A DNA stretch of 64,000 bases from a virus (IMGVR_UViG_2595698760_000001:1-64000), one strand, 5' to 3'; counted from the first letter of the stretch, positions 1 to 47,812 are shown. Notes: generated by a model not told the origin, from the letters alone. Translations and numbers: made by a program.

Positions 1-29
1 GGGGCGCTACACTCTCAAAGTGGAGACTA

Positions 30-38
30 CCCCCCCCC
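30..38. repeat. Homopolymeric C9 tract near the left end of the window
   Basis: Nine consecutive C at 30-38, directly upstream of the first TAAC hairpin. Confidence 0.6.
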
Positions 39-49
39 ATGTTCTACAC

Positions 50-59
50 GCCTAACGGC
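50..59 (+). promoter_or_regulatory. Stem-TAAC-stem hairpin #1 (GCC-TAAC-GGC); candidate hairpin promoter for the virion RNAP
   Basis: Inverted repeat with a TAAC loop about 46 nt upstream of the ATG at 101. The same C-TAAC-G hairpin recurs at 502, 1075 and 5397. The stem here is only 3 bp. Confidence 0.3.
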
Positions 60-100
60 TATTGTGGCACTCATGCCCACTTAACCTTAGGAGTATTATC

Positions 101-430
101 ATGGCTCGTCGTACAACAGTTGGCTCAGTAACTGGCGCACTCATTGACTCAATGGAAGTAGTCAGCAATGTAGCTGGCACTCTCTCTGATTCAGTAGCAC
201 ATGTGCGTACAGCAGTAGAAGGCTTAGGCTATAAGGCTCATGTATTCCGTGAGTCAGCAAAGCTGGATGCACAAATCGAACTAGGCAAGATGAAGTCTGA
301 CAAGACTCTCGCTGCCAAAGTTGACTTAGCTAAGCAGAAAGCTGAAGTACAACGCTTAATGCAAACAGACAAAGAACTTGCTGCTGTCTGGAATGAAGTT
401 GACGCTGAAGTTAACAAGTGGTTTGAGTAA
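101..430 (+). CDS. Hypothetical early protein (coiled-coil-like, 109 aa)
   Basis: AGGAG Shine-Dalgarno then ATG at 101 inside track ORF 62..430. Charged K/E/A-rich sequence. Confidence 0.6.
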   Translation: MARRTTVGSVTGALIDSMEVVSNVAGTLSDSVAHVRTAVEGLGYKAHVFRESAKLDAQIELGKMKSDKTLAAKVDLAKQKAEVQRLMQTDKELAAVWNEVDAEVNKWFE

Positions 431-435
431 CCTAT

Positions 436-453
436 GGCTCCCTAAAGGGAGCC
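436..453 (+). terminator. GGCTCCC-TAAA-GGGAGCC hairpin immediately after the stop codon (no U-tract)
   Basis: Perfect 7-bp stem with a 4-nt loop starting 6 nt after the stop at 430. No T-run follows, so it may be a terminator or an RNA stability element. Confidence 0.35.
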
Positions 454-501
454 TAAACCCTATCTACACAACTACACAAAACATTGGATAGTTCGGTAGT
501 G

Positions 502-515
502 TGACCTAACGGTCA
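502..515 (+). promoter_or_regulatory. Stem-TAAC-stem hairpin #2 (TGACC-TAAC-GGTCA)
   Basis: 5-bp perfect stem with a TAAC loop. Its 3' arm overlaps the ATG at 515, and the next in-frame ATG at 545 lies 37 nt from the loop centre. Confidence 0.4.
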
Positions 516-781
516 TGTTAGTTAACTCTAACAGGACATCTCCAATGCTCGCCTTTGAACTCACTCAAGTAGAAATCCGTACTGAATTCGACTTCATCAC
601 TTTGCAGCTTGACCTGCAAATCATTCAAAGAAAGCTCACTGCCCTAAATAAACAAGTGGACTATTGCCTAATAGAACACGACAAAACAGGTGCTGCCAAA
701 GTCATGAGAGTAATCGAAGAATGGCAATTCACCTATGAAGAACAAATCGTCATCCTAAATAACCTGTATGGGAATATCTAA
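515..781 (+). CDS. Hypothetical early protein (88 aa; alternative start at 545 gives 78 aa)
   Basis: Track ORF. If the hairpin at 502-515 is a promoter, the ATG at 545 in the same frame is the likelier start. Confidence 0.5.
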   Translation: MLVNSNRTSPMLAFELTQVEIRTEFDFITLQLDLQIIQRKLTALNKQVDYCLIEHDKTGAAKVMRVIEEWQFTYEEQIVILNNLYGNI

Positions 782-782
782 A

Positions 783-938
783 ATGCTCTATCCATTGAAC
801 CAAGCACAGAAATACACTCCTCGTTATGACCTCATCAAACAAGTTGCAGAGAAGCTAGATGCTGAACGTGCTCGCTCTGAACAAGAAGACAAAACCATTG
901 AAGTCCTCAGGACTACGGAGCAAGTATGGCTACGTTAA
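783..938 (+). CDS. Small hypothetical protein (51 aa)
   Basis: ATG at 783 two nt after the preceding stop. Below the 60-aa threshold of the ORF track. Protein-like composition. Confidence 0.35.
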   Translation: MLYPLNQAQKYTPRYDLIKQVAEKLDAERARSEQEDKTIEVLRTTEQVWLR

Positions 939-1033
939 ATAAAGACATTCGTGAAGCTAAAATAAACAAAGTCCTCATTGGACTGTTTATTCTGGTTGCC
1001 ACAGTTGGCCCTTCAGTGGTCAACATGCTCTAA
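926..1033 (+). CDS. Small hydrophobic peptide (35 aa, single predicted TM)
   Basis: GGAG Shine-Dalgarno 8 nt upstream of the ATG at 926. Hydrophobic core LIGLFILVATVG. Confidence 0.3.
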   Translation: MATLNKDIREAKINKVLIGLFILVATVGPSVVNML

Positions 1034-1038
1034 ATCCT

Positions 1039-1058
1039 GGTGCTGCTTCGGCGGCACC
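1039..1058 (+). terminator. UUCG-tetraloop hairpin (GGTGCTGC-TTCG-GCGGCACC) in the intergenic region
   Basis: 8-bp stem with one G·U pair and a TTCG loop, followed by T-rich tctgctcatttgtt. It sits just upstream of TAAC hairpin #3, giving a terminator-promoter tandem. Confidence 0.4.
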
Positions 1059-1074
1059 TCTGCTCATTTGTTAT

Positions 1075-1088
1075 GGCCCTAACGGGCC
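1075..1088 (+). promoter_or_regulatory. Stem-TAAC-stem hairpin #3 (GGCCC-TAAC-GGGCC)
   Basis: 5-bp GC stem with a TAAC loop, about 50 nt upstream of the ATG at 1132. Confidence 0.45.
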
Positions 1089-1131
1089 TTCTGGCAATAA
1101 TGCCAAACCTTTTAAATTCGGAGAATTAAAT

Positions 1132-1518
1132 ATGTCTATCTTAAACGCTGTTGCTCAGGCTGCTACTTCAACTCCTGCTACCACCTCTACCAAATCACAG
1201 CGTAAGCCTGCTGAATTGTGGGTGAACATCGGTATCGAACTGCCGAATGGCCAGTTCATCAAGCTGCCTTACAACCTGCCGCTCGACGATATGAACAAGC
1301 TGGAAATGCGTGGTCAGAATCAGGAGTGGTTGCAGGAAGCACAGGCACGTAACATGCTTCTGGACGTGCTGAAACAGCAGGCCAGCTCACTGCCTCAGGG
1401 CGAGTCTCAGGTGTTGGGTGAACTCAAAGTTCAACTGTTCCGCCGCTCAGCAGATGCGTCTGTTGACGAAGGCGAGAACCCACTGATGGCTGCTCTGATG
1501 CAGGCACTCAACAAATAA
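1132..1518 (+). CDS. Hypothetical early protein (128 aa)
   Basis: GGAGA Shine-Dalgarno. The leader and first codons (CGGAGAATTAAATATGTCTATC) are nearly identical to those of the gene at 5444. Followed by an intrinsic terminator. Confidence 0.65.
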   Translation: MSILNAVAQAATSTPATTSTKSQRKPAELWVNIGIELPNGQFIKLPYNLPLDDMNKLEMRGQNQEWLQEAQARNMLLDVLKQQASSLPQGESQVLGELKVQLFRRSADASVDEGENPLMAALMQALNK

Positions 1519-1525
1519 TCTCATT

Positions 1526-1558
1526 GCTCACTCCTTCGGGAGTGGGCGTTATTTTTTC
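1526..1558 (+). terminator. Rho-independent terminator (GCTCACTCC-TTCG-GGAGTGGGC followed by a T6 run)
   Basis: 9-bp stem with a UUCG tetraloop followed by ttattttttc. Confidence 0.8.
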
Positions 1559-1717
1559 ACTGGTGATAGTCCATGGAAATATTGCGTATCATCGACCTCA
1601 TTCATGTTGCACTCGTAATTGATTATGGTGCTATGAGCCATCACTTAGAAATGAAGGAATACATCGAATATGTCGGTGTAGATATTACAGTCCTGGGCCA
1701 ATGCACAGAGGTATGCA

Positions 1718-1894
1718 ATGGGATACACCTCAATCACTGCGATACTTAATCTCCTAAATGATGCGTTAGCTGAATGGGCTGAAGATAATCCTGATGCTTA
1801 TAAAGCAGTAAGAGATTGTCCTGTTCTGAAAGTAATAGATGACCAGCTTGAGCATCTAACTAATGTTAAGACTGGTAAGCTATGGCTAACATAA
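1718..1894 (+). CDS. Small hypothetical protein (58 aa)
   Basis: AGAGG Shine-Dalgarno 9 nt upstream of the ATG at 1718. Clean 58-codon ORF missed by the 60-aa track threshold. Confidence 0.4.
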   Translation: MGYTSITAILNLLNDALAEWAEDNPDAYKAVRDCPVLKVIDDQLEHLTNVKTGKLWLT

Positions 1895-2050
1895 TGTTTA
1901 TTCTGGTGTGTCTTGATGACTGTTTAGAAGCAACACATAGCAGAACCAAACATACCAAATATAAATACTGGGTAATAGATAACGGCTTAACTCTCATTAA
2001 TGATGGGACGTGTAAAGCAACATCCTTACTGGATAAGTGGAGAACAAGTT

Positions 2051-2233
2051 ATGCAATTGTCAGAGCTGATAAGAGTCTTTACTGAGCACTGTCACATGGA
2101 GTGGGCATTCGGTATGTCCATGGCAGAAATGGCATTGCCACCTGCCTGCTATGAGGCAGAGAAAAACCTGCAACTCATCAACCTGTTGAACAGTCGTGAG
2201 CAGGTAGGTGAATTTTATAAACCTAAATGGTAA
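2051..2233 (+). CDS. Small hypothetical protein (60 aa)
   Basis: GGAGAA Shine-Dalgarno 6 nt upstream of the ATG at 2051, inside track ORF 2000..2233. Confidence 0.35.
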   Translation: MQLSELIRVFTEHCHMEWAFGMSMAEMALPPACYEAEKNLQLINLLNSREQVGEFYKPKW

Positions 2234-2421
2234 AAACCAAAAACCGAGCCATGTCGGCTAAAGGGTGCCTAAATGCTAAGGTATGAAATGCCCAGGCTGG
2301 ATTTACTGGGAATCCTGGATAATCTGTTCATCTTTCGGGAGTTCATTGATGGCACTCCAGAGGGTGGCACCAGCCTCATGTATCGGATGATGGAGTACCA
2401 TCTTGACCCGGAGTTAGACCA

Positions 2422-2586
2422 ATGAACATTCATGAAATCATCCGGTATTACCTTCCCTATTTCGATTCCCATAATCGAAAGAGCTTTGACCAGAGGTTAT
2501 ACCTAACCTCTCGTACAATCTCTCGTCGTCAGTATGCGAGGATGTGGGAACCCTGCTTACTGGAGCATCTGCATGGCAATAGATAA
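2422..2586 (+). CDS. Small hypothetical protein (54 aa)
   Basis: ATGA start/stop overlap with the upstream 50-aa ORF 2273..2425. Protein-like sequence MNIHEIIRYYLPYFDSHNRK. Confidence 0.35.
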   Translation: MNIHEIIRYYLPYFDSHNRKSFDQRLYLTSRTISRRQYARMWEPCLLEHLHGNR

Positions 2587-2899
2587 ACCACCATTGAGCC
2601 GGCTGGTATGGGTTGTCTACAACACCCTGGGAGGCAGAAAGCCTCATCCTGTACCTCTGGGCAGGGAAGCAAATGAGCTTCTCAGAACGCTCCAGACACC
2701 GTACTGGAGAGCCTATCGAATGAGGAAATATGGCCATTGAGTATCAGTGAATTATTACTGCAGCGTGTGCCTGGTCAGGGAATACGAACTGTATTATCTG
2801 AGATTAGCTCACACGGAGTTATTCCAAAATGGTGGCCGGCTCACCTAATGGCAGCACGACTATGCACCTATCAGAAATAGTTAATCTGTTTATTAACCG

Positions 2900-3145
2900 G
2901 TGGCCAAAGAGAATGCCAACAGGAATTATGTCTCACACTTTCATTATGCAAATAGTGGCTGTCAAAGACCGTCCTCAATTAATAAGGATACTGACGTGAA
3001 CCATCAACTGCTGCTTATATTGGAACAGAACTGGGCCACCATGGAAGGCACCATCCTCAGGGGTGGAAGGAACAATGGCTGGAAGCTGATGCGTACTCTG
3101 CTTGACCTGTCAGGCAAGAGAACCAAAGCACGCTGGAACTGCTAA
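2900..3145 (+). CDS. Hypothetical small protein (81 aa)
   Basis: Track ORF with a GTG start. Its stop is adjacent to the start of the 3145 ORF. Confidence 0.25.
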   Translation: MAKENANRNYVSHFHYANSGCQRPSSINKDTDVNHQLLLILEQNWATMEGTILRGGRNNGWKLMRTLLDLSGKRTKARWNC

Positions 3146-3484
3146 TGGGCACCGGCAGTATCATCCACCTGTATGTGCTTGCCACCATGGATGTACAGCC
3201 TACGGCGCCAGGCTACGATGCAGTGATGGGCTACACCAATCTGGTATGGAACAATTTCCCAAATGACCCAGAACTCTCAACCCTCCTGCACGATACCGCT
3301 CAGCAGAGTGCTATTCGCTGCACTGTACTGGCAATGCCAACCGACTGAGTGGACAGACTGGGAATCCGTCCCAGACTGCATGAACGGGAGCCTATATTTC
3401 CATGGCGACAAGTGCCTCATCTCCACCCTGGTCAGAGCCTGGCAACAAGACAGACTCGACTCCCTATTTACTTAGCCGCTTGCT

Positions 3485-3781
3485 GTGGCTCTATTACGAG
3501 AGGTCGTCATGCGACGAAACAATCAGTACGGATTTTACGGACGCAGCAGTAAACAAATACTGCTCGATGAAGTGTCTCGACCGGATTCACCTATTAACCC
3601 TGCTTCGATTCAGTTCGTCATAGCGGCTGCACACCTGGCATTGAAAGATGCCTATAACTTTGGGACGACACCGCGGCAACGTAAGCGTCAGACCAAATTC
3701 GCTAACCGCTTCAAAACCCATCTGTCAGTGACGAGGCACATGTATGAGTTATTCGGGTGTAACGGTATCGAGTATCGTTAG
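3485..3781 (+). CDS. Hypothetical small protein (98 aa), the longest ORF in the block
   Basis: Track ORF. Basic protein. Confidence 0.3.
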   Translation: MALLREVVMRRNNQYGFYGRSSKQILLDEVSRPDSPINPASIQFVIAAAHLALKDAYNFGTTPRQRKRQTKFANRFKTHLSVTRHMYELFGCNGIEYR

Positions 3782-4477
3782 GCTGTTCCTGCCTATTGCA
3801 CGAGACCCCAAATATCATCGTATTCCTGCCGGCCGTAAACGTGGGTGGATATGTCGAATTGGCAGAGCCAAAATCGGCATGACACTCATGAAGTTCAACC
3901 GCATGAACCATCAAGACAGAGAGGAATATAATGCCTGGTTCATACACAACGATTACCGCCGTTATGAGGCCACTCATACGGATGATGCACTACGAGTCCT
4001 TCCATCTGGATGACCCCAGAGTAAAAGAGCTTGTAATGGCTCTCAGCCGTGCTGACGGCAGAACCGTCCAACTGTGTATTCACCTTGCAAGGCTGGGCTA
4101 TGCAGATAACTGAAATCATTTACATCATGTATGCCACCAACCATAACGGCTGGGCACTCAATAAAGAGTTTGCCCTGCGGTCACCACTGACCATAAGTCG
4201 TGGCTGGTGGATACTGCAGGCGAACCACTATGAGCTGCTTGAACGTGTTGTTGGCAATAAGGTGGTGCCTGATTAACCGGTATCTGGGGGAGGACTTCGA
4301 CCGAACCATGGACAAATACCTGCGCCAGGAGTTTGGCTGTCAGTTCATACCAGAGCAATATCCACCAAGTCTCTCTATGAGACTGTCTTCTTCGGTTTCC
4401 AGAAATGCGCACAATTAACCTGCTGCGGATAATGATGCGGTTGCACAGCCGAACGCATCTAATCACAACAGCCTGCA

Positions 4478-4729
4478 TTGGTCGTGGCTATGACCAAAAA
4501 CGTGGGCTGCTTCAATACCAATTCATCAAACAACTGGGAGCTGCCTATGGAGATGAGTCAAATAGTTTGCTTATTCCTGAAGAGAACAAACCGACGCTCT
4601 AAGCGTTCTTTGAAGGGATGGGTATCAAGCCAGCGTCTCAAGGAGATAACGTCTCAGGTAGCCATACAGCGCTTCTGTGACCGTATGGAGAAGCTCTATG
4701 CTCATATCCATAATCTGCAAGATAGCTGA
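4478..4729 (+). CDS. Hypothetical small protein (83 aa; internal GGGAG Shine-Dalgarno with ATG at 4547)
   Basis: Track ORF. An internal ATG preceded by GGGAG suggests a shorter product. Confidence 0.25.
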   Translation: MVVAMTKNVGCFNTNSSNNWELPMEMSQIVCLFLKRTNRRSKRSLKGWVSSQRLKEITSQVAIQRFCDRMEKLYAHIHNLQDS

Positions 4730-5136
4730 ATCTGCCATCCGTACTGACGACGTTAACTTCGAGCTGTACTGGTGGGCCTGCCAATGGCACAACGCCAGAG
4801 CCGGCTATGTGGAAAACAGCCTGACCCTCAAATTGCTTCTTCTGGAGCAAGACAATGAACATCACCACCATCCTGTATCTGTACCTGCTGCAGCAAAACC
4901 GGGTAGCAACATTCCTCATCCCTGAGGAGCTGGTGTACCTGGGGAACGACTGCCGTAAGTCAGGAGCCACCAACAACCTATGGCTAATAAACGAACGGTA
5001 TCTTACATCCTTGCGAGATACCTTAAAGGCTGCGACAAGCAAGCCGACCTGAGCTATGCACTGTGCCGTGACTGGCATGAGTACATGGACTTCTCAATCA
5101 CCAAGCGATACCGACTAAGAGGAATGGCCCTGGCCA

Positions 5137-5367
5137 TTGTGGAAGCGTATGGCCCAATCCCACCAGAGGTTTATTGACTTCGCTGGCTCAGCACTATTGG
5201 GCTGGGAGCCAGACGAAGCTGTACTGGTATGCGAAATCGTGTACCTGATTTATTGGACAACACCTGGCAATGAGCAATTCGGGCACCGTGCTGAATTTGA
5301 TGTTATGGGCAGCGGTGGCCTGATGAATCAGCTCTGCCGAATCAATGAGGAGGACATTCCGTTCTGA
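5137..5367 (+). CDS. Hypothetical small protein (76 aa)
   Basis: Track ORF, the last one before TAAC hairpin #4. Confidence 0.3.
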   Translation: MWKRMAQSHQRFIDFAGSALLGWEPDEAVLVCEIVYLIYWTTPGNEQFGHRAEFDVMGSGGLMNQLCRINEEDIPF

Positions 5368-5396
5368 CCTCTCTTTTCTTTGTTGCTCCGCTGCGT

Positions 5397-5410
5397 CGGC
5401 CTAACGGCCG
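5397..5410 (+). promoter_or_regulatory. Stem-TAAC-stem hairpin #4 (CGGCC-TAAC-GGCCG) heading the DUF2493-RNAPII operon
   Basis: 5-bp GC stem with a TAAC loop, about 41 nt upstream of the ATG at 5444. The downstream leader duplicates that of the 1132 gene. Confidence 0.45.
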
Positions 5411-5443
5411 TGTCGGTTTCTATCTATCAATCGGAGAATAAAT

Positions 5444-5638
5444 ATGTCTATCAAACCAATCGTTCATGAATACAAGGTGCATTACTCACGAGCTGAACGT
5501 GTGTGGTCTGTCAGTACCAAAAAGGGACTGACGCATCTGATTCGCCTGAACACCAAGTTCTATTACGTGGACAAGAAGCCTTATCGCTATCTGCGTGATG
5601 CAATCATGGCTGTCCTGTTACGGGATGAGGTCGTATGA
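5444..5638 (+). CDS. Hypothetical protein (64 aa), first gene of the operon
   Basis: GGAGA Shine-Dalgarno. The start context CGGAGAATAAATATGTCTATC is shared with the ORF at 1132. ATGA overlap with the next gene. Confidence 0.6.
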   Translation: MSIKPIVHEYKVHYSRAERVWSVSTKKGLTHLIRLNTKFYYVDKKPYRYLRDAIMAVLLRDEVV

Positions 5639-5991
5639 ATGTCATCGTTGCTGGAGGCCGGGACTTCACTGATACGGAGCGTATGCACCGTGAACTCATC
5701 ATCCTTTGTAAAGCTGGCCACGTTGATGCCGATGCCACCCTCGTATGTGGTATGGCTCGTGGTGCAGACATTACTGCATTCCGTCTATGGAAGCAGTTTG
5801 GCAATCCGATAATCGAGATGCCGGCTGACTGGGATAGCTGGGGCAAGCGAGCTGGCTATATCCGTAACACGGAGATGGCCCGCAAAGCTGATGTGCTGGT
5901 GGCATTCTGGGACGGTGAGTCCCGTGGCACCGGCCACATGATTAGCACCATGGCTGCGATGAACAAGCCTGTCTATGTCGTGAGGTACTGA
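5635..5991 (+). CDS. DUF2493/SLOG-family Rossmann-fold protein (YspA/DprA-LOG-like)
   Basis: Motifs VIVAGGRDF, GMARGAD, PADWDSWGKRAGYIRN, FWDGESRGTGHMI and KPVYVV are typical of the DUF2493 family. Confidence 0.6.
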   Translation: MNVIVAGGRDFTDTERMHRELIILCKAGHVDADATLVCGMARGADITAFRLWKQFGNPIIEMPADWDSWGKRAGYIRNTEMARKADVLVAFWDGESRGTGHMISTMAAMNKPVYVVRY

Positions 5992-6182
5992 TGAGCCAAC
6001 TCATTAATAAGCTGCGCCGAGCCATCAAACACCATGTGGCTGCTCAGGCTGAACTGGACTGGAAGGGTAGTCGTCATCCCGACGACTGGCCGGCCATTGA
6101 CCGGGAGGCTGCTCGTGCAAAGAAACGCCTCGACGAGGTGATTGCGTCTATTCAACTGAAACTGGAGTTCCCTGATTCATGA
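5991..6182 (+). CDS. Hypothetical protein (63 aa)
   Basis: Overlapping junctions with both neighbours. Confidence 0.5.
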   Translation: MSQLINKLRRAIKHHVAAQAELDWKGSRHPDDWPAIDREAARAKKRLDEVIASIQLKLEFPDS

Positions 6183-6985
6183 AAGCTGATACCCAACGTC
6201 TCATTGAGACCATGTATAGCAAGCACCAGACCATGGACTTGCTGATGAGTGAGTTCAAGAACGAACCATTCATAACCAACCTCGTTGACCAGTCTGGCCT
6301 GGAGGCTGACTTCTGTTATGCCCTGTTATGCCAGATGGCGCTGCACAAGCGTGCCAAGGTGGATGTGCTGGTAGGTGTAATGGCTCGCCACGGTGAGACG
6401 TTGCAACAGGTAACAGACATGCTTGTTTCGGCTGCAGAGGCTGACCTCGTAGATTTTAATCCTGCGATTCACCAGTTCATCATTAAGTGGCAACCCGAGC
6501 AAAAGGTGTATGACCTGATTGATAAATATCAGTTCCTGCCACCGATGATTGTGCCGCCGCTGCCGGTAACCGGTAACAAAGGCCGTGGCCACCTGACCTG
6601 TAAGGACAGTCTGATTCTGAAGAACAACCACCATGACGGAGACATCTGTCTGGATGTGGTGAACCTGAAGAACCAGATTCCCCTTCAGATAAACGTGGAT
6701 GTCGTAATGGGCATCCGCAACAAGTGGAAGAACCTCAATCGCTGTAAGCCTGGCGAAACCTTCGAGGACTTCCAGAAGCGTGTCGAAGCGTTTGAACGTT
6801 TCGAGAAGCTCACCATGAAAGACATGGCGCTCATGGTCAATAACGACAATGAGTTCTACTTCACTCATGCGTATGACAAGCGTGGCCGCAGCTACTGCAG
6901 CGGTTACACCATCAACTATCAGGGCAATGACTACCAGAAGGCAGTCGTTGAATTCAAAGACGAAGAAATCGTAGAGGGCTTCTAA
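6179..6985 (+). CDS. RNA polymerase II small subunit (N4 gp15-like, 268 aa)
   Basis: Size and position immediately upstream of the catalytic subunit, as in N4 where gp15 is 269 aa. No catalytic motifs are expected in this subunit. Confidence 0.55.
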   Translation: MKADTQRLIETMYSKHQTMDLLMSEFKNEPFITNLVDQSGLEADFCYALLCQMALHKRAKVDVLVGVMARHGETLQQVTDMLVSAAEADLVDFNPAIHQFIIKWQPEQKVYDLIDKYQFLPPMIVPPLPVTGNKGRGHLTCKDSLILKNNHHDGDICLDVVNLKNQIPLQINVDVVMGIRNKWKNLNRCKPGETFEDFQKRVEAFERFEKLTMKDMALMVNNDNEFYFTHAYDKRGRSYCSGYTINYQGNDYQKAVVEFKDEEIVEGF

Positions 6986-7428: not shown

Positions 7429-8631
7429 ATGCAACAATTCAATGGCGCACAGTATCTGAAGATGGACATCGCTTCAAAGTTTGGTCTGGACAAAGAGAAC
7501 TGGGATGTTCGCCTGGATTGGGTCCGGGAGAACGAGCACCGTCTCGAAGAACTGGTATCGCAGGCTGACGAGTCAGCCGGCTTCCTCGCTGGCGTTATGG
7601 CCTTACGGAAAGCTCAATCCGGCAAAGCGACTGGCTATACCATTTCTCTGGATGCGACAGCATCCGGTGTTCAGATTCTGGCTGCACTGTCCGGGTGTGA
7701 GAAATCAGCCCGGGCCTGCAACCTGATTGATACGGGTAACCGTGAAGATGCGTACACCATCGTCTACAAGGCGATGAATGAGCGTCTGGGCGCAGTAGGC
7801 TATGCACCTCGCAGTAACGTGAAGACGGCAGTGATGACGTCTCTGTATGGCTCAAAGGCTGAACCACGCAAGGTATTCGGTGAAGGCTCCAAGGAGCTGG
7901 CCGAGTTCTATAACACCATGCCAGTGGAACTGCCTGGTGCCTGGGCACTGAACGAAGACCTGATTAACCTCTGGCGCTCTGACGTGTACAAGCACCAGTA
8001 CACCCTGGCCGACGGCTATGAGGTGTCACTGAAGGTGATGGACGGCGTAGTCGAGTCAGTGTACATCGCTGGCATGGAGTACGAAGTCATCCGCCATGTG
8101 AACCAGCCTAAGCAGCATGAGGTATCTCTGGCTGCGAACATCGTGCATAGCATCGATGGCCTGGTGGTACGTGAGATGCAGCGCCGCTGTCAGTATGACG
8201 TGGAGTTGGTGAAGCAGGTGATGGCCATTAGCACTACCGGCCTGAGCACCTCTCGCAAGAAGGATACTGAGCTGCTGCGTCTGCTGACGCTGTATCGTGA
8301 ATCCAAATTCATGAGTGCTCGTATCTTCCAGTACCTGGATGAGCTGAATGCCGGCCACCTGAAGGCCGACGAGAAGCGTGAAATCAACATCCTGGCACAG
8401 GGTATGCTGAACCATAAATCATTCCCGCTGCTGACTATCCATGACTGCTTCCGCTGCAGTCCGAACCATGGTGACCACATGCGTTACCACTATGCCGAAA
8501 TCATGAGCCAGTTGGCTCGTAGCGAGATGCTGTCACATATCGCTTCACAGATTACCGGCACCAAAATGGCTGTGACCAAGAAGGGCAACATTGCTGCTGC
8601 CATCCTTGAGTCCGAATACGCTATCTGCTGA
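7429..8631 (+). CDS. RNA polymerase II catalytic subunit (T7-like single-subunit RNAP, N4 gp16-like)
   Basis: Motif A LDATASGVQILAA resembles T7 DGSCSGIQHF. Motif B RSNVKTAVMTSLYGS resembles T7 RSVTKRSVMTLAYGS. Motif C IHDCFRC resembles T7 HDSFGT. Confidence 0.85.
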   Translation: MQQFNGAQYLKMDIASKFGLDKENWDVRLDWVRENEHRLEELVSQADESAGFLAGVMALRKAQSGKATGYTISLDATASGVQILAALSGCEKSARACNLIDTGNREDAYTIVYKAMNERLGAVGYAPRSNVKTAVMTSLYGSKAEPRKVFGEGSKELAEFYNTMPVELPGAWALNEDLINLWRSDVYKHQYTLADGYEVSLKVMDGVVESVYIAGMEYEVIRHVNQPKQHEVSLAANIVHSIDGLVVREMQRRCQYDVELVKQVMAISTTGLSTSRKKDTELLRLLTLYRESKFMSARIFQYLDELNAGHLKADEKREINILAQGMLNHKSFPLLTIHDCFRCSPNHGDHMRYHYAEIMSQLARSEMLSHIASQITGTKMAVTKKGNIAAAILESEYAIC

Positions 8632-37159: not shown

Positions 37160-37173
37160 GGGGGCTTTGTTTT
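37144..37173. terminator. Bidirectional rho-independent terminator (A6-GCCCCC-GTGA-GGGGGC-TTTGTTTT) between convergent transcription units
   Basis: Hairpin flanked by an A-run and a T-run. It ends the + strand early/middle genes and the − strand virion RNAP gene, whose stop is at 37172-37174. Confidence 0.8.
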
Positions 37174-40100
37174 AACGGAGCATCTGGGCTACCGGATGAA
37201 GTGTCGGAGCATCCAATGCTCGAAGCGGCGTGTCGATGGAATACCAGAAGTTATCTCCAGCCAGGTTTGCCTCGAATGGAGAGTCAATGCCCAAGCCATC
37301 TGCAGCCCCCTGATAGACCAGTGTCGAGAGGGGGTTGTCACGCATACGGCGCAGCAGGATTTTCTGGATTTTCAGCTTGTACGTCAGGAACCAAGTGAAG
37401 CCCATGGATTCCAGATAAGTACGGGTACGGCCAGGGTTGTTGTCATAGTTGATGAACTCCTCCTGAATATACCGCAGAGCTTCTTCTGCTGATTTGCCAT
37501 CCTGTTTTGTCAGCTTGTCGAACAGCACCGCTTTGGCCACAAAGTCACCGTAGGTCATCATGCGGTTCAAACCGTTATGCAGCGGAGTCCCTTTCGCAAT
37601 CATCGCCAGTTTTACCGTGTCCGATACACCCTTCGGCACTTTATCAGTGATGCGCTCAATCCAGTTCAGTGCGCCACCACGAATTGCATTATCGTCTTCA
37701 ATGGTGAGACCTTCAGCTACCGTCGGCAGTTCGCCGGCCGCAATCAGAGGAGCAATGCTCATCCGTTTGTTGGCTTCTGCCAGACGCTGGATGTGACGCT
37801 TGTTCCGAGCAATCGTCGCAGCATCCGTTGTGCCCAGGTTATCTGAGTACAGTTGGTTCTGCTTATTGACGTTGCGCAGGTAGGCATCCACTTCCTGCAT
37901 CTTAGCGGCCTGACCTTTGAAGATGGCTTTCAAGCCAACACCGTTCTGCCCCAACTGAATGAAGTTACCCATCAGGTTCATTGTGAACACTGAGACGGAA
38001 CGAACGATTACCCAGTCTTTAGCCATGCTCACTGCATCCTGAGTGTAACGCTCACCTTTGCGCAGATAGCGTGCAGCTTTGGCACCCATGATAGCGGTGG
38101 CCAAGTCCACCAGCCCATCAGTCACCGGCTTCGGCAGGTCTGTCTGGTTGGTGAAAGCAGACGTCACTGAGAAGTTACGGTAACCGAATGCGTTGTTCAG
38201 CATGTCCCGGCGCACCATAACAGGCTTGCCTTTGAAGGCAGACTTCAGTGATTCCTGCATTGCACGAGGAATAGCGTTCCAGGTTTCAGCATCAGCCTTG
38301 TTGGTCTCTGCTGATTTAGCCAGGTCGATATACTCCTCTTTGCGAATAGTCCCTTTCTCTGAATCCCACACGCTGGCCAGCTTCTGCGCCAACACATCAT
38401 TAAAGCCCTGAGCCAATGTTTCCTCAGTCTGACGGCCCTGCCATACGCCGAGCAGTTCAGACAGATTAGTATTGGCTCCCAGGCGCTCCTGACGAATGGC
38501 ATCCGGCATCGGTGCTTCATACCCCGTCACTTCCCCATTTTTGTTAAACACCGGCATCAGTTTGCCACCAGTGGTTCCCAGCTTTGGCGTCACAATACGA
38601 GAGTTCTTCTGACGTGCCATGGCTGTCGCCGCATTCTTCCGCAGGCTGAATGAACCACGCAAGTCAGTAGACTGGCCAGTGATTGGGTCAACACCATAAA
38701 CCAATGGTTCAACAGTCTGCATCGCACCCTGGGTGTAGCCGGCCTGCAGATTCTCGTTGGTGAAGTAATAACTCAGCGCATTCTTGCCGAGGTCAGCATC
38801 ACCAACATAGCCATCGACTTTGACGTAGCCATAGTTCTTCACCAGGCTGGCGCCAGTCTTGGCATCCGCCACCACCATGTTCATGTGGTGAGAAGTTACC
38901 GACGGCAGATGGCCTTTGTAGCCATTGAGTGAATCGTAGCCCTGCATTTTGCGCAGTTCAGTGCTGTTCAGGGCAGTCATGTAGTTACCCACGAAATCCA
39001 GCCCAGAACGCTCTGTATCGAACAGAGAACCCATAGTGGTACGTTCACCCTCTGAGAGCATTTGCAGAGCGTACAGGCTCACCAGGTTGTCGATAGCGCT
39101 AACGTTCTGCTCTGCGTTGGTCACAGTCTTACCCGTGCCAGTCAGTTCAGCAATAGCCGTGGCATTGCGCAGCAGATGGTCAGAGATATTGTCTCCGGTC
39201 ATCATAAAGTGAGCCAACTCTTTGGAGCGCACCACATAGTCAGCGCCATGGGTCATGCCGGCAACGTTACGTTCCTCAGCCTGTACAGCCTTCTGCAGCG
39301 CTTTCGGGTCTTTGAGCCACGTCTGCACATCATCCATGGAATAATCCTGCAGAAGCGATTGCACGTCGGTTTTACCGAATGCCCGGGTGACTGCCGCCCA
39401 CTCAGCCTTGGTGAGTTCACGAGTGAACTTTGACTGGATGTTCTTCGGTACACCCTCACGGATTTTCTGACGTACAGCCGAGACCTGGTTCTTGGCCTGC
39501 TGCAGCATTTTGTTCACCATCACGCTGGACTTGCTGGTGCCGAGCATCTCAGTGAATAGCTCCTGCACCGGGCGCCACAGCTTGCTGGAGTTCACAGCAT
39601 TCTGCAGGGCATCCTGAGAACCGGAGTTTTTATCCAGGGCACCAACAGCACTCAGCAGGGTGTTGACCGCTGTATCCACTCCAGACTGTGCGCCAGCAGA
39701 AACACGAGCATCTCGCAGGTCAGCCGCCGCTGTACCCAGACGCTGCAACTGAGCAGACAGGAAACTGTCAGCACGGTTCATGCCAGAGGTCGGTGCATCC
39801 AGTACCGAGGTCTTGGTGGCATAGTTGATGTCAGCAATCTTATCCGACAGGATGTCCAGAGCCTGGGCAGCATTCGCTGCTTTGCGAGTACCGTTGCCGA
39901 GGTCGGCAATGTAATCAATCAGGTCTTTGGTGCCATTCGACAGACGAGCCATCACATCTCCAGCCGGTGCATTACGGCGGGGAATGTCGTGCTTAGCCAG
40001 TGCCTGACGGAACTCCTCATTGGTGTTGGCCAGCGCCACGAAGTTAGCCAACTGAGTTGTCTTATCGTTGTTGCGCAGTGCATTCAGTTTGGCATCACCA

Positions 40101-43100
40101 TTGGTGGCAAAGTCAGTTGCTTCCAGCTTCGGCATCACTGAATCGTACAGACGCTGCATTGCATTCAGCGCAGTCGGGTTCAGTTGCAGGCCGGAGGCCA
40201 GTAACACCTGAGTCAGATTGAAGGCATGTTCCTCTTTCGGAGACATGTTCCATCCTGCCGCCTGGAACTCTTTCAGGGTGGCATTGATGTTCGGTGCCTG
40301 GCCATTGATGATTGCACGGCTACGAGCATTCTGTGCCAGCAGTTCACCAGTCTGTTTCACCGTCTGCTTAGTGGCGGCGTCGAGACGCTGAACCAATGAG
40401 TCCAAACGGTTAACGTGGTCTGGTAGTGAGGTGTCATGGTCGAGAGCCTGGTTCAGGTCTGTCATGGACATCTCATTCAGATTACCCCGGGCAATGGTCT
40501 GCACCATGTTGTCAAAGTTACCGGCCAGCGCTTCCAGCACTGATTGACCTGAGGTAGTTGGGAAGCCCAGCAACCGGAGGACAGCAGTCTTCAGTTTCTG
40601 CATGATGCGTACGAGCGGGCCATCTACCTGAGCAGAAGCGTCAGCAGTTACTGTGCTGGTCAGCGCCTGCAGGTTCTGGTTAGCCAGAGTCCAGGCCACA
40701 AACTCATTCAGTGCGCTGGCAGTATCACCGTTGGTGATGTGCCGGTTAATTGCCGTCTGCGCATACTTCAGTGAACGCATGGTAGCGAAGTCAGAGTTCT
40801 GTCCAGTCAGGTTCATGAACTGACGCATCAGCACCTGCATGTTATTTACCGCGGCAACCTGTTCAGCAGACGCAGTGTCTGGTGAGTAGATGGCCTGGTT
40901 AATCCCGTTCTGGATGCCGGCATGAATTGCTTCATGGAACAGCGTCTCGTTGTTGGCCACTCGCAGGAAGATGGCATTGCCGTAGGTAGAGGCATTGGCA
41001 TCAGCATTGAAGCGCACATCCGGGAACATTGCCTGCTGCATTGCAGTCACCTGGTCAGGCGTACCGAAGTAGACCTGCAGGTTCGACGACAGCGCTGGCG
41101 CCAGGCGAGTGAATAGTGCTTTGGTCACTCTGTCCATTGGGTGAGTTGCCAGAGCATTCATCAACTGGTCTTTGGTCAGAGAGTACGCACCCTCAGCAAC
41201 CTCAGAACCATACTGCTTGAATTTCTCAACCAGAGCTTTGTCATGCGTCGGAGCTTTAGCCGACAGGTTCTCTTTCAGGATTGCATCTGCACGGGCCTGC
41301 ATAGCAGCAATCTGCTCCTGGCGAGTACCGGTGTAAACCTGGTCACCATGGTTGTACGCTTTATCCACACCACCCATGTGAGAGATGGTGGACTTAGTTT
41401 CCAGCAGCGCCTGACGGACAGCAGCATTTCGCGCTGACATCTGTTTGTGAGATTGCAGCATTGACTGGATTTCACCGGTCAGCGCAGCGTAGGTTTTAGC
41501 GTTACGCATTGCCTTCACTTTGTCAGCCGACACAAACTTGTTGGTGACAGAGCGAACCACCTGAGCAAAATCAGCATCTGACATTGCGGCCAGGTCGAGA
41601 TTCTCCAGAGCCTTCGAGGTGCCTGCAATGATGTTGGCATACAGGTTGGTTCCCCAGCCTTCCGCCACTGACTGGTTGATAGCATCAGAGGCCGCTTCCA
41701 TATCACCGACACGAGTATCCAGACCGTCATAGACGTTCTGTGCAACCAGGCCCAGCTTCTTAATCATGTTGAAGAAGCGAGTCATCATCGTAGCGTCACC
41801 GCCAGAGATAGTGGCCAGCGCAACAGTACGCACACCAGGGGAACCAATCTCAGTCCCATTGGAATTGGAGGCCAGGCCACCAGTCAGGTCAGTGACACGA
41901 GACTTATTGCGGGTGCCGTCAGTCATGTAGTCAGCCACACCATTTGGTGACATGGTTCCCATGTTGAAGCCATTGGCTCGGTCATTACCGGTGACACCGT
42001 TCTGGTAAATCGGTGCCAGGTGCTCCAGCTCTTTGGTGATGGAATCCTCGTCAGATTGAGACAGCATTTCGTTTGGCGCCAGGGTGCCTTCAGAAACACG
42101 CTTAGCCTGCAGCTCGTTGTAGGCTTTCTCCCAGGCAGACTTGAACATCAGCCCCTGAATGTTAGTCAGCGCAGCCATCTCTTTGTTACGAGCCAGTGCG
42201 CCGCCGACAGTATCATCAATGCCTTTGTACATCAGCTCACCCACTGACTCATTCAGAGCAGCGTAGGTGTTCTTCAGCACGCCTTCCGGTACACGGAACT
42301 GACGACGCTGTTTGTCAGAGGCATTGGCCAGAGCAGAGAACATGCCGGTGCCGGTCAGGTCATCGAGTGCTGCAGCCATACCAGTATTGAACTGGTCACG
42401 GCCGGCCAGTACATCAGTCAGGTGCGAGTAGAAGTTATTCACAACTTCATTCACAACGGTAGCCGACATAGCACGGGAACCGGAGCCATAAGTCGCTGGA
42501 GTTACTAACAGCTTGGCAAAGTTACGGGTCAGCCCAGTAGTCTTGTTCTCATCATCCTGAGACGTCATGCCAGCGTAAGTCAGCAGTGACATCAGAGACT
42601 GAGCCATTGGGTCTGTAGCAGACTTCAGGTAGCCATAAATATTGCTGGCAGTCGTGACGTACATATCCGGGTTATTCACCGGGTCATACGTCATGTTCGA
42701 CGGCATATCTGGCTGGCCAACGTTCCAACCCACTTTCCCCAGGATGCCCAGAGCAAACTCGTTCACGGTAGTCATACCGTAATGCACGAATGAGTTAGCC
42801 GGGCCATCGGTCACACCATCCACCTCGAACGTCACAGCATGTTCAAAGGTAGGATTGCCTTCCGCCAGCGCTACATTGTGCGCCGCCGCCGACAGCATAG
42901 TGTGCAGATACTTGTTATCTTTGCCGGCCGCTGCCGCATTGATAGTATCTGCCTCTGCCTTCGTCAGAGAATCCCAACCATCAGTCAGACCTTTTTCCAT
43001 AGCCGATACACCGGCCTGCAGTTGCAGGTCAGTATTCAGCAGATTGTTCACCGCTTCGATAGCCGCATTGTTGGCCATCTTGTCCACCTTGATGCCCAGA

Positions 43101-47797: not shown

Positions 47798-47812
47798 TAT
47801 GTGCCTCAAAGA

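What the first reader, a model, noticed from the sequence alone, without database searches (positions are those of the whole stretch)
50..5410. Four recurrent stem-TAAC-stem hairpins 36-50 nt upstream of early start codons: candidate hairpin promoters for the giant virion RNAP
Four hairpins share the same CTAACG core: GCC-TAAC-GGC at 50-59, TGACC-TAAC-GGTCA at 502-515, GGCCC-TAAC-GGGCC at 1075-1088 and CGGCC-TAAC-GGCCG at 5397-5410. Each sits a fixed distance upstream of an ORF, has a T-rich 3' flank, and lacks a U-tract, which separates them from the terminators here (GC stem, UUCG/GNRA loop, T-run). N4-family virion RNAPs recognise small DNA hairpins as early promoters, and this window encodes such a polymerase. 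The hairpin at 1075 is preceded by a UUCG terminator hairpin at 1039-1058, giving a terminator-promoter tandem. The motif does not match the published N4 P1-P3 loops as I remember them, so this would be the promoter class specific to this phage.
Basis: partly seen in the sequence, partly recalled or inferred. Interest (0 to 1): 0.7.

Follow-up and report, generated by a model that had tools for sequence, protein, structure and literature searches.

The report
Four-base-loop hairpin promoters, N4-like phage
The four small hairpins at the left end of Erwinia phage S6 are very probably the start signals read by the giant RNA polymerase the phage injects, a four-base-loop version of the known three-base-loop hairpin promoters of coliphage N4.

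Summary
The window is bases 1-64000 of Erwinia phage vB_EamP-S6, an N4-like phage (Schitoviridae). The shared octamer CCTAACGG occurs nowhere else in the 74.7-kb genome except in the terminal-repeat copy. All copies are on the + strand and in intergenic DNA.

They mirror the three mapped N4 promoters:
- Site 1 lies in the terminal repeat before the first gene.
- Site 3 precedes the N4 gp2 homologue.
- Site 4 heads the block containing both RNAPII subunit genes.

Counted from the last loop base, a purine-G dinucleotide sits exactly 10 nt downstream, the same register as N4 +1/+2.

Phage Pastis (vRNAP 57% identical) keeps hairpins at all four orthologous positions. Its stems carry compensatory changes and its loop is TATC.

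On the template strand the loop reads 5'-GTTA-3' closed by C:G. This is a GNNA DNA mini-hairpin; N4 has GNA. Four-base loops also occur in Rhizobium phage RHEph22 and in uncultured N4-like contigs.

This is a new variant of a known promoter kind, not a class unique to this phage. Site 1 has only a 3-bp stem and is the weakest call. No transcript mapping exists.

The parts
1..397 (.). Left copy of the 397-bp direct terminal repeat. It contains hairpin 1, as the N4 terminal repeat contains P1.
   Evidence: Bases 1-397 are identical to 74273-74669 of the full record. N4 P1 at 90-102 lies within its 390-440-bp repeat (PMC3715699).
50..59 (+). Hairpin 1, GCC-TAAC-GGC. Candidate vRNAP promoter equivalent to N4 P1, upstream of gp001 (ATG at 101). 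Predicted +1 is G66. This is the weakest of the four, with a 3-bp stem.
   Evidence: Conserved as GCC-TAAC-GGC in Fifi011 and GCC-TATC-GGC in Pastis.
66..77 (+). Hairpin GGCA-CTCA-TGCC starting at the predicted +1 of site 1. It would be a 5'-terminal stem-loop of the transcript.
   Evidence: Pastis has GGCA-ATCA-TGCC at the same place. N4 P1 has GGACA-TGT-TGTCC starting at +1.
436..453 (+). Stem-loop GGCTCCC-TAAA-GGGAGCC just after the gp001 stop codon. Terminator-like, without a T-run.
   Evidence: Pastis has AAGGTAGCC-GAAA-GGCTACCTT at the equivalent position.
502..515 (+). Hairpin 2, TGACC-TAAC-GGTCA. Candidate vRNAP promoter upstream of gp002 (ATG at 545). Predicted +1 is A520.
   Evidence: -4.2 kcal/mol, z = -3.3. 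Pastis has CAGAGCC-TATC-GGCTCTG, with three stem pairs changed on both sides.
1039..1058 (+). Stem-loop GGTGCTGC-TTCG-GCGGCACC after gp004. A terminator-like element preceding promoter 3.
   Evidence: Pastis has TGCCC-GTGA-GGGCA at the equivalent position.
1075..1088 (+). Hairpin 3, GGCCC-TAAC-GGGCC. Candidate vRNAP promoter equivalent to N4 P2, upstream of the gp2 homologue gp005 (ATG at 1132). Predicted +1 is G1093.
   Evidence: -6.2 kcal/mol, z = -2.8. Pastis has GGCCC-TATC-GGGCC.
1093..1104 (+). Hairpin GGCA-ATAA-TGCC starting at the predicted +1 of site 3.
   Evidence: Identical in Fifi011 and Pastis.
1132..1518 (+). gp005, homologue of N4 gp2, the single-stranded-DNA-binding cofactor of RNAPII.
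   Evidence: 31% identity, E = 1e-13.
1525..1548 (+). Classical intrinsic terminator after gp005: a stem with a TTCG loop, followed by TTATTTTTT.
5397..5410 (+). Hairpin 4, CGGCC-TAAC-GGCCG. Candidate vRNAP promoter equivalent to N4 P3. It heads the packed block gp025-gp031, which includes both RNAPII subunits. Predicted +1 is G5415.
   Evidence: -6.6 kcal/mol. Pastis has CGCC-TATC-GGCG.
6179..6985 (+). gp028, homologue of N4 gp15 (RNAPII subunit).
   Evidence: 40% identity, E = 3e-74.
7429..8631 (+). gp031, homologue of N4 gp16 (RNAPII subunit).
   Evidence: 39% identity, E = 3e-104.
37172..47809 (-). Giant virion RNA polymerase, gp079 (annotated 37172-47797). This is the enzyme proposed to read the hairpins.
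   Evidence: 3545-aa ORF. Its central domain matches N4 mini-vRNAP 2PO4 with E = 7e-46. Annotated as virion RNA polymerase.

Best explanation
The four hairpins are the early promoters of phage S6, read by its injected virion RNA polymerase (gp079).

**Inferred mechanism, by analogy with N4**
1. After the left end of the genome enters the cell, negative supercoiling extrudes the inverted repeat.
2. The template (bottom) strand forms a compact DNA mini-hairpin, 5'-(stem)CC-GTTA-GG(stem)-3'. The loop's G and A form a sheared pair, leaving two T's at the tip.
3. Host single-strand-binding protein melts the less stable top-strand hairpin.
4. The polymerase binds the template-strand hairpin.
5. Transcription starts rightward at a purine 10 nt downstream of the last loop base: G66, A520, G1093 and G5415.

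**What the promoters would express**
- the first gene
- gp002
- the gp2-like cofactor
- the two RNAPII subunits needed for the middle phase

**Shown here:** the sequence anatomy, its exclusivity, its conservation and covariation, and its positional and register equivalence to N4.

**Inferred:** hairpin extrusion, polymerase binding and the exact start sites.
For: **1. Identity.** The window is an N4-like phage. It encodes a gp50-like giant polymerase, both RNAPII subunits and a gp2 homologue.

**2. Exclusivity.** CCTAACGG is found only at these sites, always in the + orientation and always intergenic. It is absent from the 6-37 kb replication region and from the late genes.

**3. Position.** N4 P1, P2 and P3 lie before gp1 (inside the terminal repeat), gp2 and gp15 (PMC13434306). 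S6 sites 1, 3 and 4 lie before the first gene (inside the terminal repeat), the gp2 homologue and the RNAPII block.

**4. Register.** When sites are anchored on the last loop base, all 12 Waedenswilvirus sites, the three N4 promoters and 12 of the 13 hairpins before gp2 homologues in uncultured contigs have R-G exactly at +1/+2; the exception, L022, has G-T. Most have a pyrimidine at -1.

**5. Model specificity.** A model built from these rules recovers exactly P1, P2 and P3 in 9 kb of N4 with no extra hits. With stems of 5 bp or more it recovers only sites 2-4 in the whole S6 genome.

**6. Conservation.**
- Pastis has a vRNAP 57% identical to S6.
- Its intergenic DNA is 41-66% identical.
- It keeps hairpins at all four orthologous places, with stem pairs changed on both sides.
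- Across 16 four-base-loop sites, 84.5% of cells are paired against 58% in shuffles, and 5 of 6 pairs carry double changes.

**7. Stability.**
- Template-strand hairpin energies are -2.6 to -6.6 kcal/mol, against -3.7 to -7.3 for N4 P1-P3.
- GCGNNAGC and GCGNAGC DNA mini-hairpins are both exceptionally stable.
- CC/GG stems and the GTTA loop are acceptable variants.
- The N4 promoter is cited as such a mini-hairpin (PMC13037366).

**8. No rival signal.** There is no sigma-70-like signal near the sites and no Rfam match.
Against: - There are no transcription start data for S6 or any Waedenswilvirus.
- Three defining N4 features differ. The loop is 4 nt rather than 3. The loop tip is two pyrimidines rather than the single purine that stacks on W129 in N4. 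Template position -8 is C, not the G that N4 vRNAP requires (PMC4496689).
- Site 1 has only three Watson-Crick pairs.
- In LUZ7 the mapped start lies 13-14 nt from the hairpin centre (PMC9163698). The predicted +1 could therefore be off by about 2 nt.
- The N4 promoter-contact residues could not be mapped reliably onto the S6 enzyme.
- The hairpins from uncultured contigs were found by looking for hairpins, which inflates the covariation statistic.
Confidence: 0.85

Rival explanations
1. They are middle promoters read by the phage's two-subunit RNAPII with the gp2-like cofactor. In Pseudomonas phage LUZ7 the middle promoters are GC-rich hairpins with 3-4-nt loops.
For: LUZ7 middle promoters have stems of 6 bp or more and 3-4-nt loops about 15 bp upstream of a G start (PMC9163698). 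A 4-nt loop therefore has an experimental precedent only in that class.
Against: - The motif precedes the genes for RNAPII and its cofactor, which must be expressed before RNAPII exists.
- It is absent from the whole 6-37 kb replication region, where middle promoters are expected.
- Its spacing to R-G equals that of the N4 early promoters.
- The stems are 3-5 bp, shorter than the LUZ7 middle class.
Confidence: 0.06
2. They act at the RNA level on read-through transcripts. Possible roles are processing sites, attenuators or terminators, or an operator bound by a phage protein that recognises the loop.
For: - Sites 2-4 lie downstream of genes and would be present in read-through RNA.
- The loop identity is uniform within a genome (TAAC four times in S6, TATC four times in Pastis). 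That pattern also fits a single trans-acting RNA-binding factor.
Against: - Site 1 has no upstream gene; it lies 50 nt from the genome end.
- There is no U-tract, and separate terminator-like hairpins already sit upstream of sites 2 and 3.
- An RNA element gives no reason for the fixed distance to a conserved Y-R-G, or for the match to N4 promoter geometry.
- There is no Rfam match.
Confidence: 0.05
3. They are priming signals for DNA replication: single-strand initiation sites recognised by a primase, as at the complementary-strand origins of phages G4, St-1 and alpha3.
For: St-1 and alpha3 carry a GCGTTAGC mini-hairpin, with the same GTTA loop, at the primase start site (PMC13037366). S6 encodes a primase (gp072).
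Against: - There are four copies, all oriented with the early genes.
- Each sits 25-39 nt (predicted +1 to ATG) before a ribosome-binding site and start codon.
- They are positionally equivalent to the N4 transcription promoters.
- Nothing links them to the replication module.
Confidence: 0.03
4. They are chance inverted repeats with no function.
For: Site 1 alone, with its 3-bp stem, is no better than shuffled sequence. About seven other 3-bp matches to the relaxed model exist on the + strand.
Against: - The octamer is exclusive to these sites (0.03 expected, 4 seen).
- All four sites are conserved at orthologous positions in a phage whose intergenic DNA is only 41-66% identical.
- Stem changes are compensatory.
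Confidence: 0.01

Closest known systems
Coliphage N4 early promoters P1, P2 and P3 (vRNAP DNA-hairpin promoters)
   Same: - Left-end location, with one copy inside the terminal repeat.
- Placement before the first gene, gp2 and the RNAPII genes.
- Short GC-rich inverted repeat.
- On the template strand, a C:G closing pair and a loop that begins with G and ends with A.
- A 9-nt spacer from the loop to a purine start followed by G.
- A T-rich coding-strand spacer.
- A hairpin starting at +1 at some sites.

(PMC4496689.)
   Different: - The loop has 4 bases (template GTTA), not 3 (GGA or GAA).
- The loop tip is two pyrimidines instead of the single purine at -11 that N4 vRNAP contacts.
- Template -8 is C, not G.
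- S6 has four sites rather than three.
- One S6 stem is only 3 bp, against 5-7 bp in N4.
Pseudomonas phage LUZ7 early promoters (mapped by ONT-cappable-seq)
   Same: Hairpin promoters of an N4-like phage with stems of 4 bp or more and a preferred G start. The strongest drive the gp2-like or Drc-like cofactor gene (PMC9163698).
   Different: - LUZ7 loops are 3 nt.
- The LUZ7 start is 13-14 nt from the hairpin centre, against a predicted 11.5 nt here.
- LUZ7 sites are experimentally mapped; the S6 sites are not.
LUZ7 middle (RNAPII) hairpin promoters
   Same: GC-rich hairpin with a 3-4-nt loop upstream of a G start.
   Different: LUZ7 middle promoters have stems of 6 bp or more, lie about 15 bp from the start and sit in the middle region. 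The S6 motif is confined to the first 5.4 kb and precedes the RNAPII genes themselves.
DNA mini-hairpins GCGNAGC / GCGNNAGC (Hirao), including GCGTTAGC at the St-1/alpha3 primase origin
   Same: The template-strand core CCGTTAGG has the same form. It has two G-C pairs, in the CC/GG combination reported as acceptable, around a G-N-N-A loop with a sheared G-A pair. GTTA is a listed stable variant (PMC13037366).
   Different: That is a structural class, not a functional family. The St-1/alpha3 element serves primase, not an RNA polymerase promoter. The stability of the exact S6 sequence was not measured.

Membership tests
N4-type vRNAP DNA-hairpin early promoter | The phage encodes a giant virion RNA polymerase homologous to N4 gp50 | tested here: met
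   3545-aa ORF at 37172-47809 (-). Its central domain matches N4 mini-vRNAP with E = 7e-46.
N4-type vRNAP DNA-hairpin early promoter | Located at the left genome end, oriented with the early genes, upstream of the first gene, gp2 and the RNAPII genes | tested here: met
   Sites at 50, 502, 1075 and 5397, all on the + strand. gp005 is a gp2 homologue. gp028 and gp031 are gp15 and gp16 homologues. N4 P1, P2 and P3 lie at 90, 557 and 4546.
N4-type vRNAP DNA-hairpin early promoter | Inverted repeat giving a 5-7-bp stem | tested here: inconclusive
   Sites 2, 3 and 4 have 5-bp stems. Site 1 has 3 bp.
N4-type vRNAP DNA-hairpin early promoter | 3-nt loop with a central purine at -11 on the template strand | tested here: not met
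   The loop is 4 nt. The template strand reads 5'-GTTA-3', with two pyrimidines at the tip.
N4-type vRNAP DNA-hairpin early promoter | Template-strand loop begins with G (-10), ends with A (-12), and is closed by a C:G pair | tested here: met
   The template strand reads C-GTTA-G at all four sites and C-GATA-G in Pastis. The sheared G-A pairing itself is inferred from PMC13037366.
N4-type vRNAP DNA-hairpin early promoter | G at template position -8 | tested here: not met
   The coding strand has G at -8, so the template has C, at all four sites. Both states occur elsewhere in the family, even within a single contig (L013).
N4-type vRNAP DNA-hairpin early promoter | Start site (template C, coding G) at a fixed distance, 8 nt downstream of -8 | tested here: met
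   Coding-strand R-G lies exactly 10 and 11 nt after the last loop base at all four sites: G, A, G, G followed by G. This is a sequence prediction, not a mapped start.
N4-type vRNAP DNA-hairpin early promoter | vRNAP-dependent, rifampicin-resistant initiation on single-stranded or supercoiled template with SSB | not testable with these tools
   This needs in vitro transcription or in vivo 5'-end mapping.
LUZ7-type RNAPII middle hairpin promoter | Stem of 6 bp or more, 3-4-nt loop, distributed in the middle (replication) region | tested here: not met
   Stems are 3-5 bp. The motif is absent from 6-37 kb.
Intrinsic (rho-independent) terminator | GC-rich stem followed by a T-run | tested here: not met
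   None of the four was called by the terminator scan, and none has a T-run.

The most novel reading that the evidence does not exclude
Virion-polymerase promoters across the N4-like phages may share a single structural rule: a template-strand DNA mini-hairpin, C-G(N)1-2A-G, placed 9 nt before a purine-G start.

Loop length, and the loop base next to the A, appear fixed within each lineage:
- T in S6, Fifi011 and Pastis
- A in RHEph22, L007 and L008
- C in L019
- G in L024

On this reading each lineage's polymerase has co-evolved its loop-reading element. That would give naturally orthogonal polymerase/hairpin-promoter pairs. The uniform TAAC in S6 against the uniform TATC in Pastis would be a recent switch of this kind.
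Probability: 0.3. Interest if true: 0.55.

Novelty: new variant of a known kind. Interest (0 to 1): 0.4.

Why it matters
Hairpin promoters read on single-stranded DNA are known in mechanistic detail only for N4, and every structure uses a 3-base loop with a purine tip.

A set of four promoters with a 4-base GNNA loop, a pyrimidine tip and a different -8 base would have three consequences:
- The polymerase family would be shown to tolerate, or to have re-specified, the very contacts thought essential in N4.
- There would be a simple rule for annotating early promoters in the several hundred N4-like genomes.
- Candidate orthogonal promoter/polymerase pairs would be available for single-stranded-template transcription.

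For S6 itself, a fire-blight biocontrol phage, this defines the early transcription units. It remains a prediction that fits expectation for an N4-like phage, so the surprise to a specialist is moderate.

Tried and rejected
- **Original S6 genome paper.** I tried to read Born et al. 2011 (AEM) to see whether these promoters were already described. It is not held. The GenBank and RefSeq records carry only CDS features. No held paper that cites S6 discusses its promoters. Prior description therefore cannot be excluded.
- **More relatives in IMG/VR.** I scanned for the conserved site-3 sequence GGCCCTANCGGGCCTTNTGGCAATAATGCC and got 0 hits.
- **N4 promoter-contact residues.** I tried to map W129, K114, R119, K267/268, K849/850, D901 and R904 onto S6 and Pastis. 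The numbering was verified on N4, but at 24% identity the MAFFT and phmmer alignments disagree. No conclusion was drawn.
- **Rfam scan of the whole window.** No match.
- **Sigma-70 promoter scan of 1-6200.** It found 5 sites against 7.9 expected, none next to the hairpins.
- **Other recurrent loops.** GCCA was the commonest 4-nt loop. Its copies are scattered inside genes with no common context, so they were rejected as chance.
- **Concerted loop change as evidence of co-evolution.** I considered treating the A-to-T difference between S6 and Pastis as strong evidence of polymerase co-evolution. I weakened this because the same loop position varies within single genomes elsewhere (L007, L019, L024).

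Full report
**What the window is.** Bases 1-6000 are 100% identical to the start of Erwinia phage vB_EamP-S6 (HQ728266 / NC_019514, 74,669 bp, Schitoviridae, genus Waedenswilvirus).
- The record is linear. Its first 397 bases are repeated exactly at 74273-74669, so the phage has N4-style direct terminal repeats.
- The window encodes a 3545-residue protein on the - strand (37172-47809). Its central part matches the crystallised N4 mini-vRNAP with E = 7e-46.
- It also encodes homologues of the two N4 RNAPII subunits. gp028 is 40% identical to gp15 and gp031 is 39% identical to gp16.
- gp005 is a homologue of the N4 RNAPII cofactor gp2 (31% identity, E = 1e-13).
- The deposited annotation lists only coding sequences and no promoters.

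The full octamer CCTAACGG is common to all four.
- It occurs nowhere else in the 74.7-kb genome on either strand, apart from the terminal-repeat copy at 74323.
- Dinucleotide-preserving shuffles give 0.03 copies on average in the first 5.5 kb of the + strand, against four observed.
- All four fall in the roughly 18% of that stretch that is intergenic (my count).
- The other TAAC-loop hairpins in the window have 3-4-bp stems. They lack the CC..GG core and lie inside genes or antisense to them.

Two details need correcting. Site 1 has only three base pairs and by itself is no better than shuffled sequence. The distance to the start codon is not fixed, at 30-44 nt from the hairpin's 3' end.

**Comparison with the N4 promoters.**
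- In the N4 genome the three promoters are GTTGC-TTC-GCAAC (90-102, before gp1, inside the terminal repeat), AAGAAGC-TCC-GCTTCTT (557-573, before gp2) and AAGCTGC-TCC-GCAGCTT (4546-4562, before gp15).
- This agrees with the literature statement that vRNAP transcribes gp1, gp2, gp15 and gp16 (PMC13434306).
- S6 sites 1, 3 and 4 occupy the same three positions: in the terminal repeat before the first gene, before the gp2 homologue, and at the head of the tightly packed gp025-gp031 block that holds both RNAPII genes. Site 2, before gp002, is extra.
- According to the N4 review (PMC4496689), the template strand carries -8G, -9C, -10G, -11R, -12A and -13G. -10G and -12A form a sheared pair, four A's act as a ruler, and the start is at a template C.
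- Read on the template strand, the S6 sites are 5'-..CC-GTTA-GG..-3'. The closing C:G pair and the G and A loop ends are kept. One base is added to the loop, the tip is TT rather than a purine, and -8 is C rather than G.

**Register.**
- I anchored each site on the last loop base (-10) and looked 10 nt downstream.
- All four S6 sites, their four Fifi011 and four Pastis counterparts, and the three N4 promoters have purine-G exactly at +1/+2. So do 12 of the 13 hairpins found before gp2 homologues in uncultured N4-like contigs; the exception, L022, has G-T. Most have a pyrimidine at -1.
- The predicted S6 starts are G66, A520, G1093 and G5415. These leave 25-39-nt leaders that contain GGAG-type ribosome-binding sites.
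- I built a scan model from these rules: stem of 4 bp or more, closing C..G, loop T-N(1-2)-C, and R-G at +1/+2. It returns exactly P1, P2 and P3 in 9 kb of N4 and nothing else.
- With stems of 5 bp or more it returns only sites 2, 3 and 4 in the whole S6 genome on both strands.

**Conservation.**
- Fifi011 (about 85% identical) keeps all four sites, but that is weak evidence at such a short distance.
- Pastis, in the same genus, is much more distant. Its vRNAP is 57% identical and the four intergenic regions are 41-66% identical.
- It nevertheless has hairpins at all four orthologous positions: GCC-TATC-GGC, CAGAGCC-TATC-GGCTCTG, GGCCC-TATC-GGGCC and CGCC-TATC-GGCG.
- At site 2, three stem pairs are changed on both sides. 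At site 4, one is.
- Over 16 four-base-loop sites, 84.5% of cells are paired against 58% in shuffles. Five of six pairs show double changes, and sliding the partner by one to three columns collapses pairing to 23-46%.
- That figure is inflated, because the metagenomic sites were found by searching for hairpins. The S6/Pastis comparison does not suffer from this.

**Loop diversity in the family.** Loop length looks like a lineage trait.

| Loop length | Phage or contig | Loops seen |
|---|---|---|
| 3 nt | N4 | TTC, TCC |
| 3 nt | Pantoea phage G19 | TTC |
| 3 nt | Salmonella FSL SP-058 and Escherichia Pollock | TTC at five sites each, including a tandem pair before the gp2 homologue |
| 3 nt | most uncultured contigs | TCC, TTC, TGC, TAC |
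| 4 nt | S6 and Fifi011 | TAAC |
| 4 nt | Pastis | TATC |
| 4 nt | Rhizobium phage RHEph22 | TTAC, before gene 1 and before the gp2 homologue |
| 4 nt | contig L007 | TTGC, TTAC |
| 4 nt | contig L008 | TTAC |
| 4 nt | contig L019 | TGTC, TGAC |
| 4 nt | contig L024 | TCAC, TCGC, TCTC |

- On the template strand nearly every one of these loops is G-N-A or G-N-N-A closed by C:G. The one exception seen is the TTA loop in contig L022.
- A recent review of DNA mini-hairpins states that GCGNAGC and GCGNNAGC are both extraordinarily stable, through two G-C pairs and a sheared G-A pair. It also says that CC/GG stems and the GTTA loop are acceptable variants, and that the N4 promoter GCGGAGC is an example (PMC13037366).
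- The S6 element is therefore best described as the GNNA form of the same structural device.
- Nearest-neighbour DNA folding puts the S6 template-strand hairpins at -2.6, -4.2, -6.2 and -6.6 kcal/mol, against -3.7, -5.2 and -7.3 for N4 P1-P3. The review notes that such models underestimate mini-hairpins.

**Rivals.**
- *Middle promoters.* This is the most serious rival. LUZ7 middle promoters, read by RNAPII, are GC-rich hairpins with 3-4-nt loops (PMC9163698). Three points argue against it for S6: the motif precedes the RNAPII and cofactor genes themselves, it is absent from the entire replication region, and it has the N4 early-promoter spacing.
- *RNA-level roles.* A terminator, processing site or operator does not fit. 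Site 1 has no upstream gene, there are no T-runs, separate terminator-like hairpins sit at 436-453 and 1039-1058, and the distance to Y-R-G is fixed.
- *Primase signal.* The St-1/alpha3 origin has the same GTTA loop, but such a signal does not explain the gene-linked positions.
- *Host promoters.* Host sigma-70 promoters are not enriched and none adjoins a hairpin. Rfam gives nothing.

**Limits.**
- No 5'-end data exist for this genus.
- In LUZ7 the mapped start is 13-14 nt from the hairpin centre, so the predicted +1 carries an uncertainty of about 2 nt.
- Site 1 rests on context rather than on its own strength: the shared octamer, its position, and its conservation in Pastis with the same loop switch.
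- Attempts to see whether the N4 loop-contacting residues are changed in S6 failed, because the alignments are unreliable at 24% identity.
- The uniform TAAC in S6 against the uniform TATC in Pastis suggests that one factor reads the loop. However, the same loop position varies within single genomes elsewhere, so I treat co-evolution as a hypothesis only.
- I could not read the original S6 genome paper, so prior description of these sites cannot be excluded.

**Verdict.** These are very probably the vRNAP early promoters of S6 (confidence 0.85 for sites 2-4, lower for site 1). They are a four-base-loop variant of the N4 hairpin promoter that other lineages share. Interest is moderate. The result is expected in kind for an N4-like phage, but it departs from three of the contacts considered essential in N4 and yields a simple family-wide rule that can be tested directly.

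Noticed in passing
window 66-77 and 1093-1104; also L004 (N4) 107-119 and 576-593: A hairpin whose 5' arm begins at the predicted +1 or +2 of the transcript occurs in 14 of 40 predicted vRNAP promoters across the loci, against 8% at control R-G positions (binomial p about 1e-6). The set includes N4 P1 and P2 and S6 sites 1 and 3. It may be a 5'-terminal stem-loop that stabilises early mRNAs, or it may act in promoter escape.
   Followed up: partly
window 7-12, 44-49, 464-469, 472-477 (+ strand): CTACAC is not enriched genome-wide (20 copies against 26.8 expected). However, four copies cluster in the two leftmost intergenic regions, just upstream of hairpins 1 and 2. They are kept in Pastis, and N4 P1 is preceded by GTACACGTTACACG. 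Function is unknown.
   Followed up: partly
window 31-39: A run of nine C's lies about 12 nt upstream of hairpin 1, inside the terminal repeat. It is conserved in S6, Fifi011 and Pastis.
   Followed up: no
window 1-397 and full record 74273-74669 (L002): There is an exact 397-bp direct terminal repeat. The right-hand copy carries a second copy of hairpin 1 (74322-74331), which points off the genome end into a truncated gp001.
   Followed up: yes
full record 71611-74075 (L002 9612-12076), outside the window: A cluster of 13 small + strand genes (gp103-gp115) lies at the right end, next to the terminal repeat. It has no CCTAACGG-type hairpin upstream, so which polymerase transcribes it is unclear.
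   Followed up: no
L003 5144-5533 (Fifi011), L031 3671-4102 (RHEph22), L005 6348-6527 (Pastis): These look like annotation errors in relatives. The gp2-like single-stranded-DNA-binding cofactor is labelled 'RNAP1 subunit A' in Fifi011 and in the Rhizobium phages. A 59-residue Pastis ORF is labelled 'terminase large subunit'.
   Followed up: no
L032 2885-2952 and L033 1499-1566: Salmonella phage FSL SP-058 and Escherichia phage Pollock each have two predicted hairpin promoters in tandem, 53 nt apart, before the gp2 homologue. This recalls the tandem early promoters mapped before drc in LUZ7.
   Followed up: no
window 48828-48841 (+ strand): CCTGC-TGAC-GCAGG followed by GG at the promoter spacing lies inside gp080 and antisense to it. 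It has A rather than a pyrimidine at -1. It is probably chance, but it is the only other hairpin in the genome with a stem of 5 bp or more that nearly fits the model.
   Followed up: no
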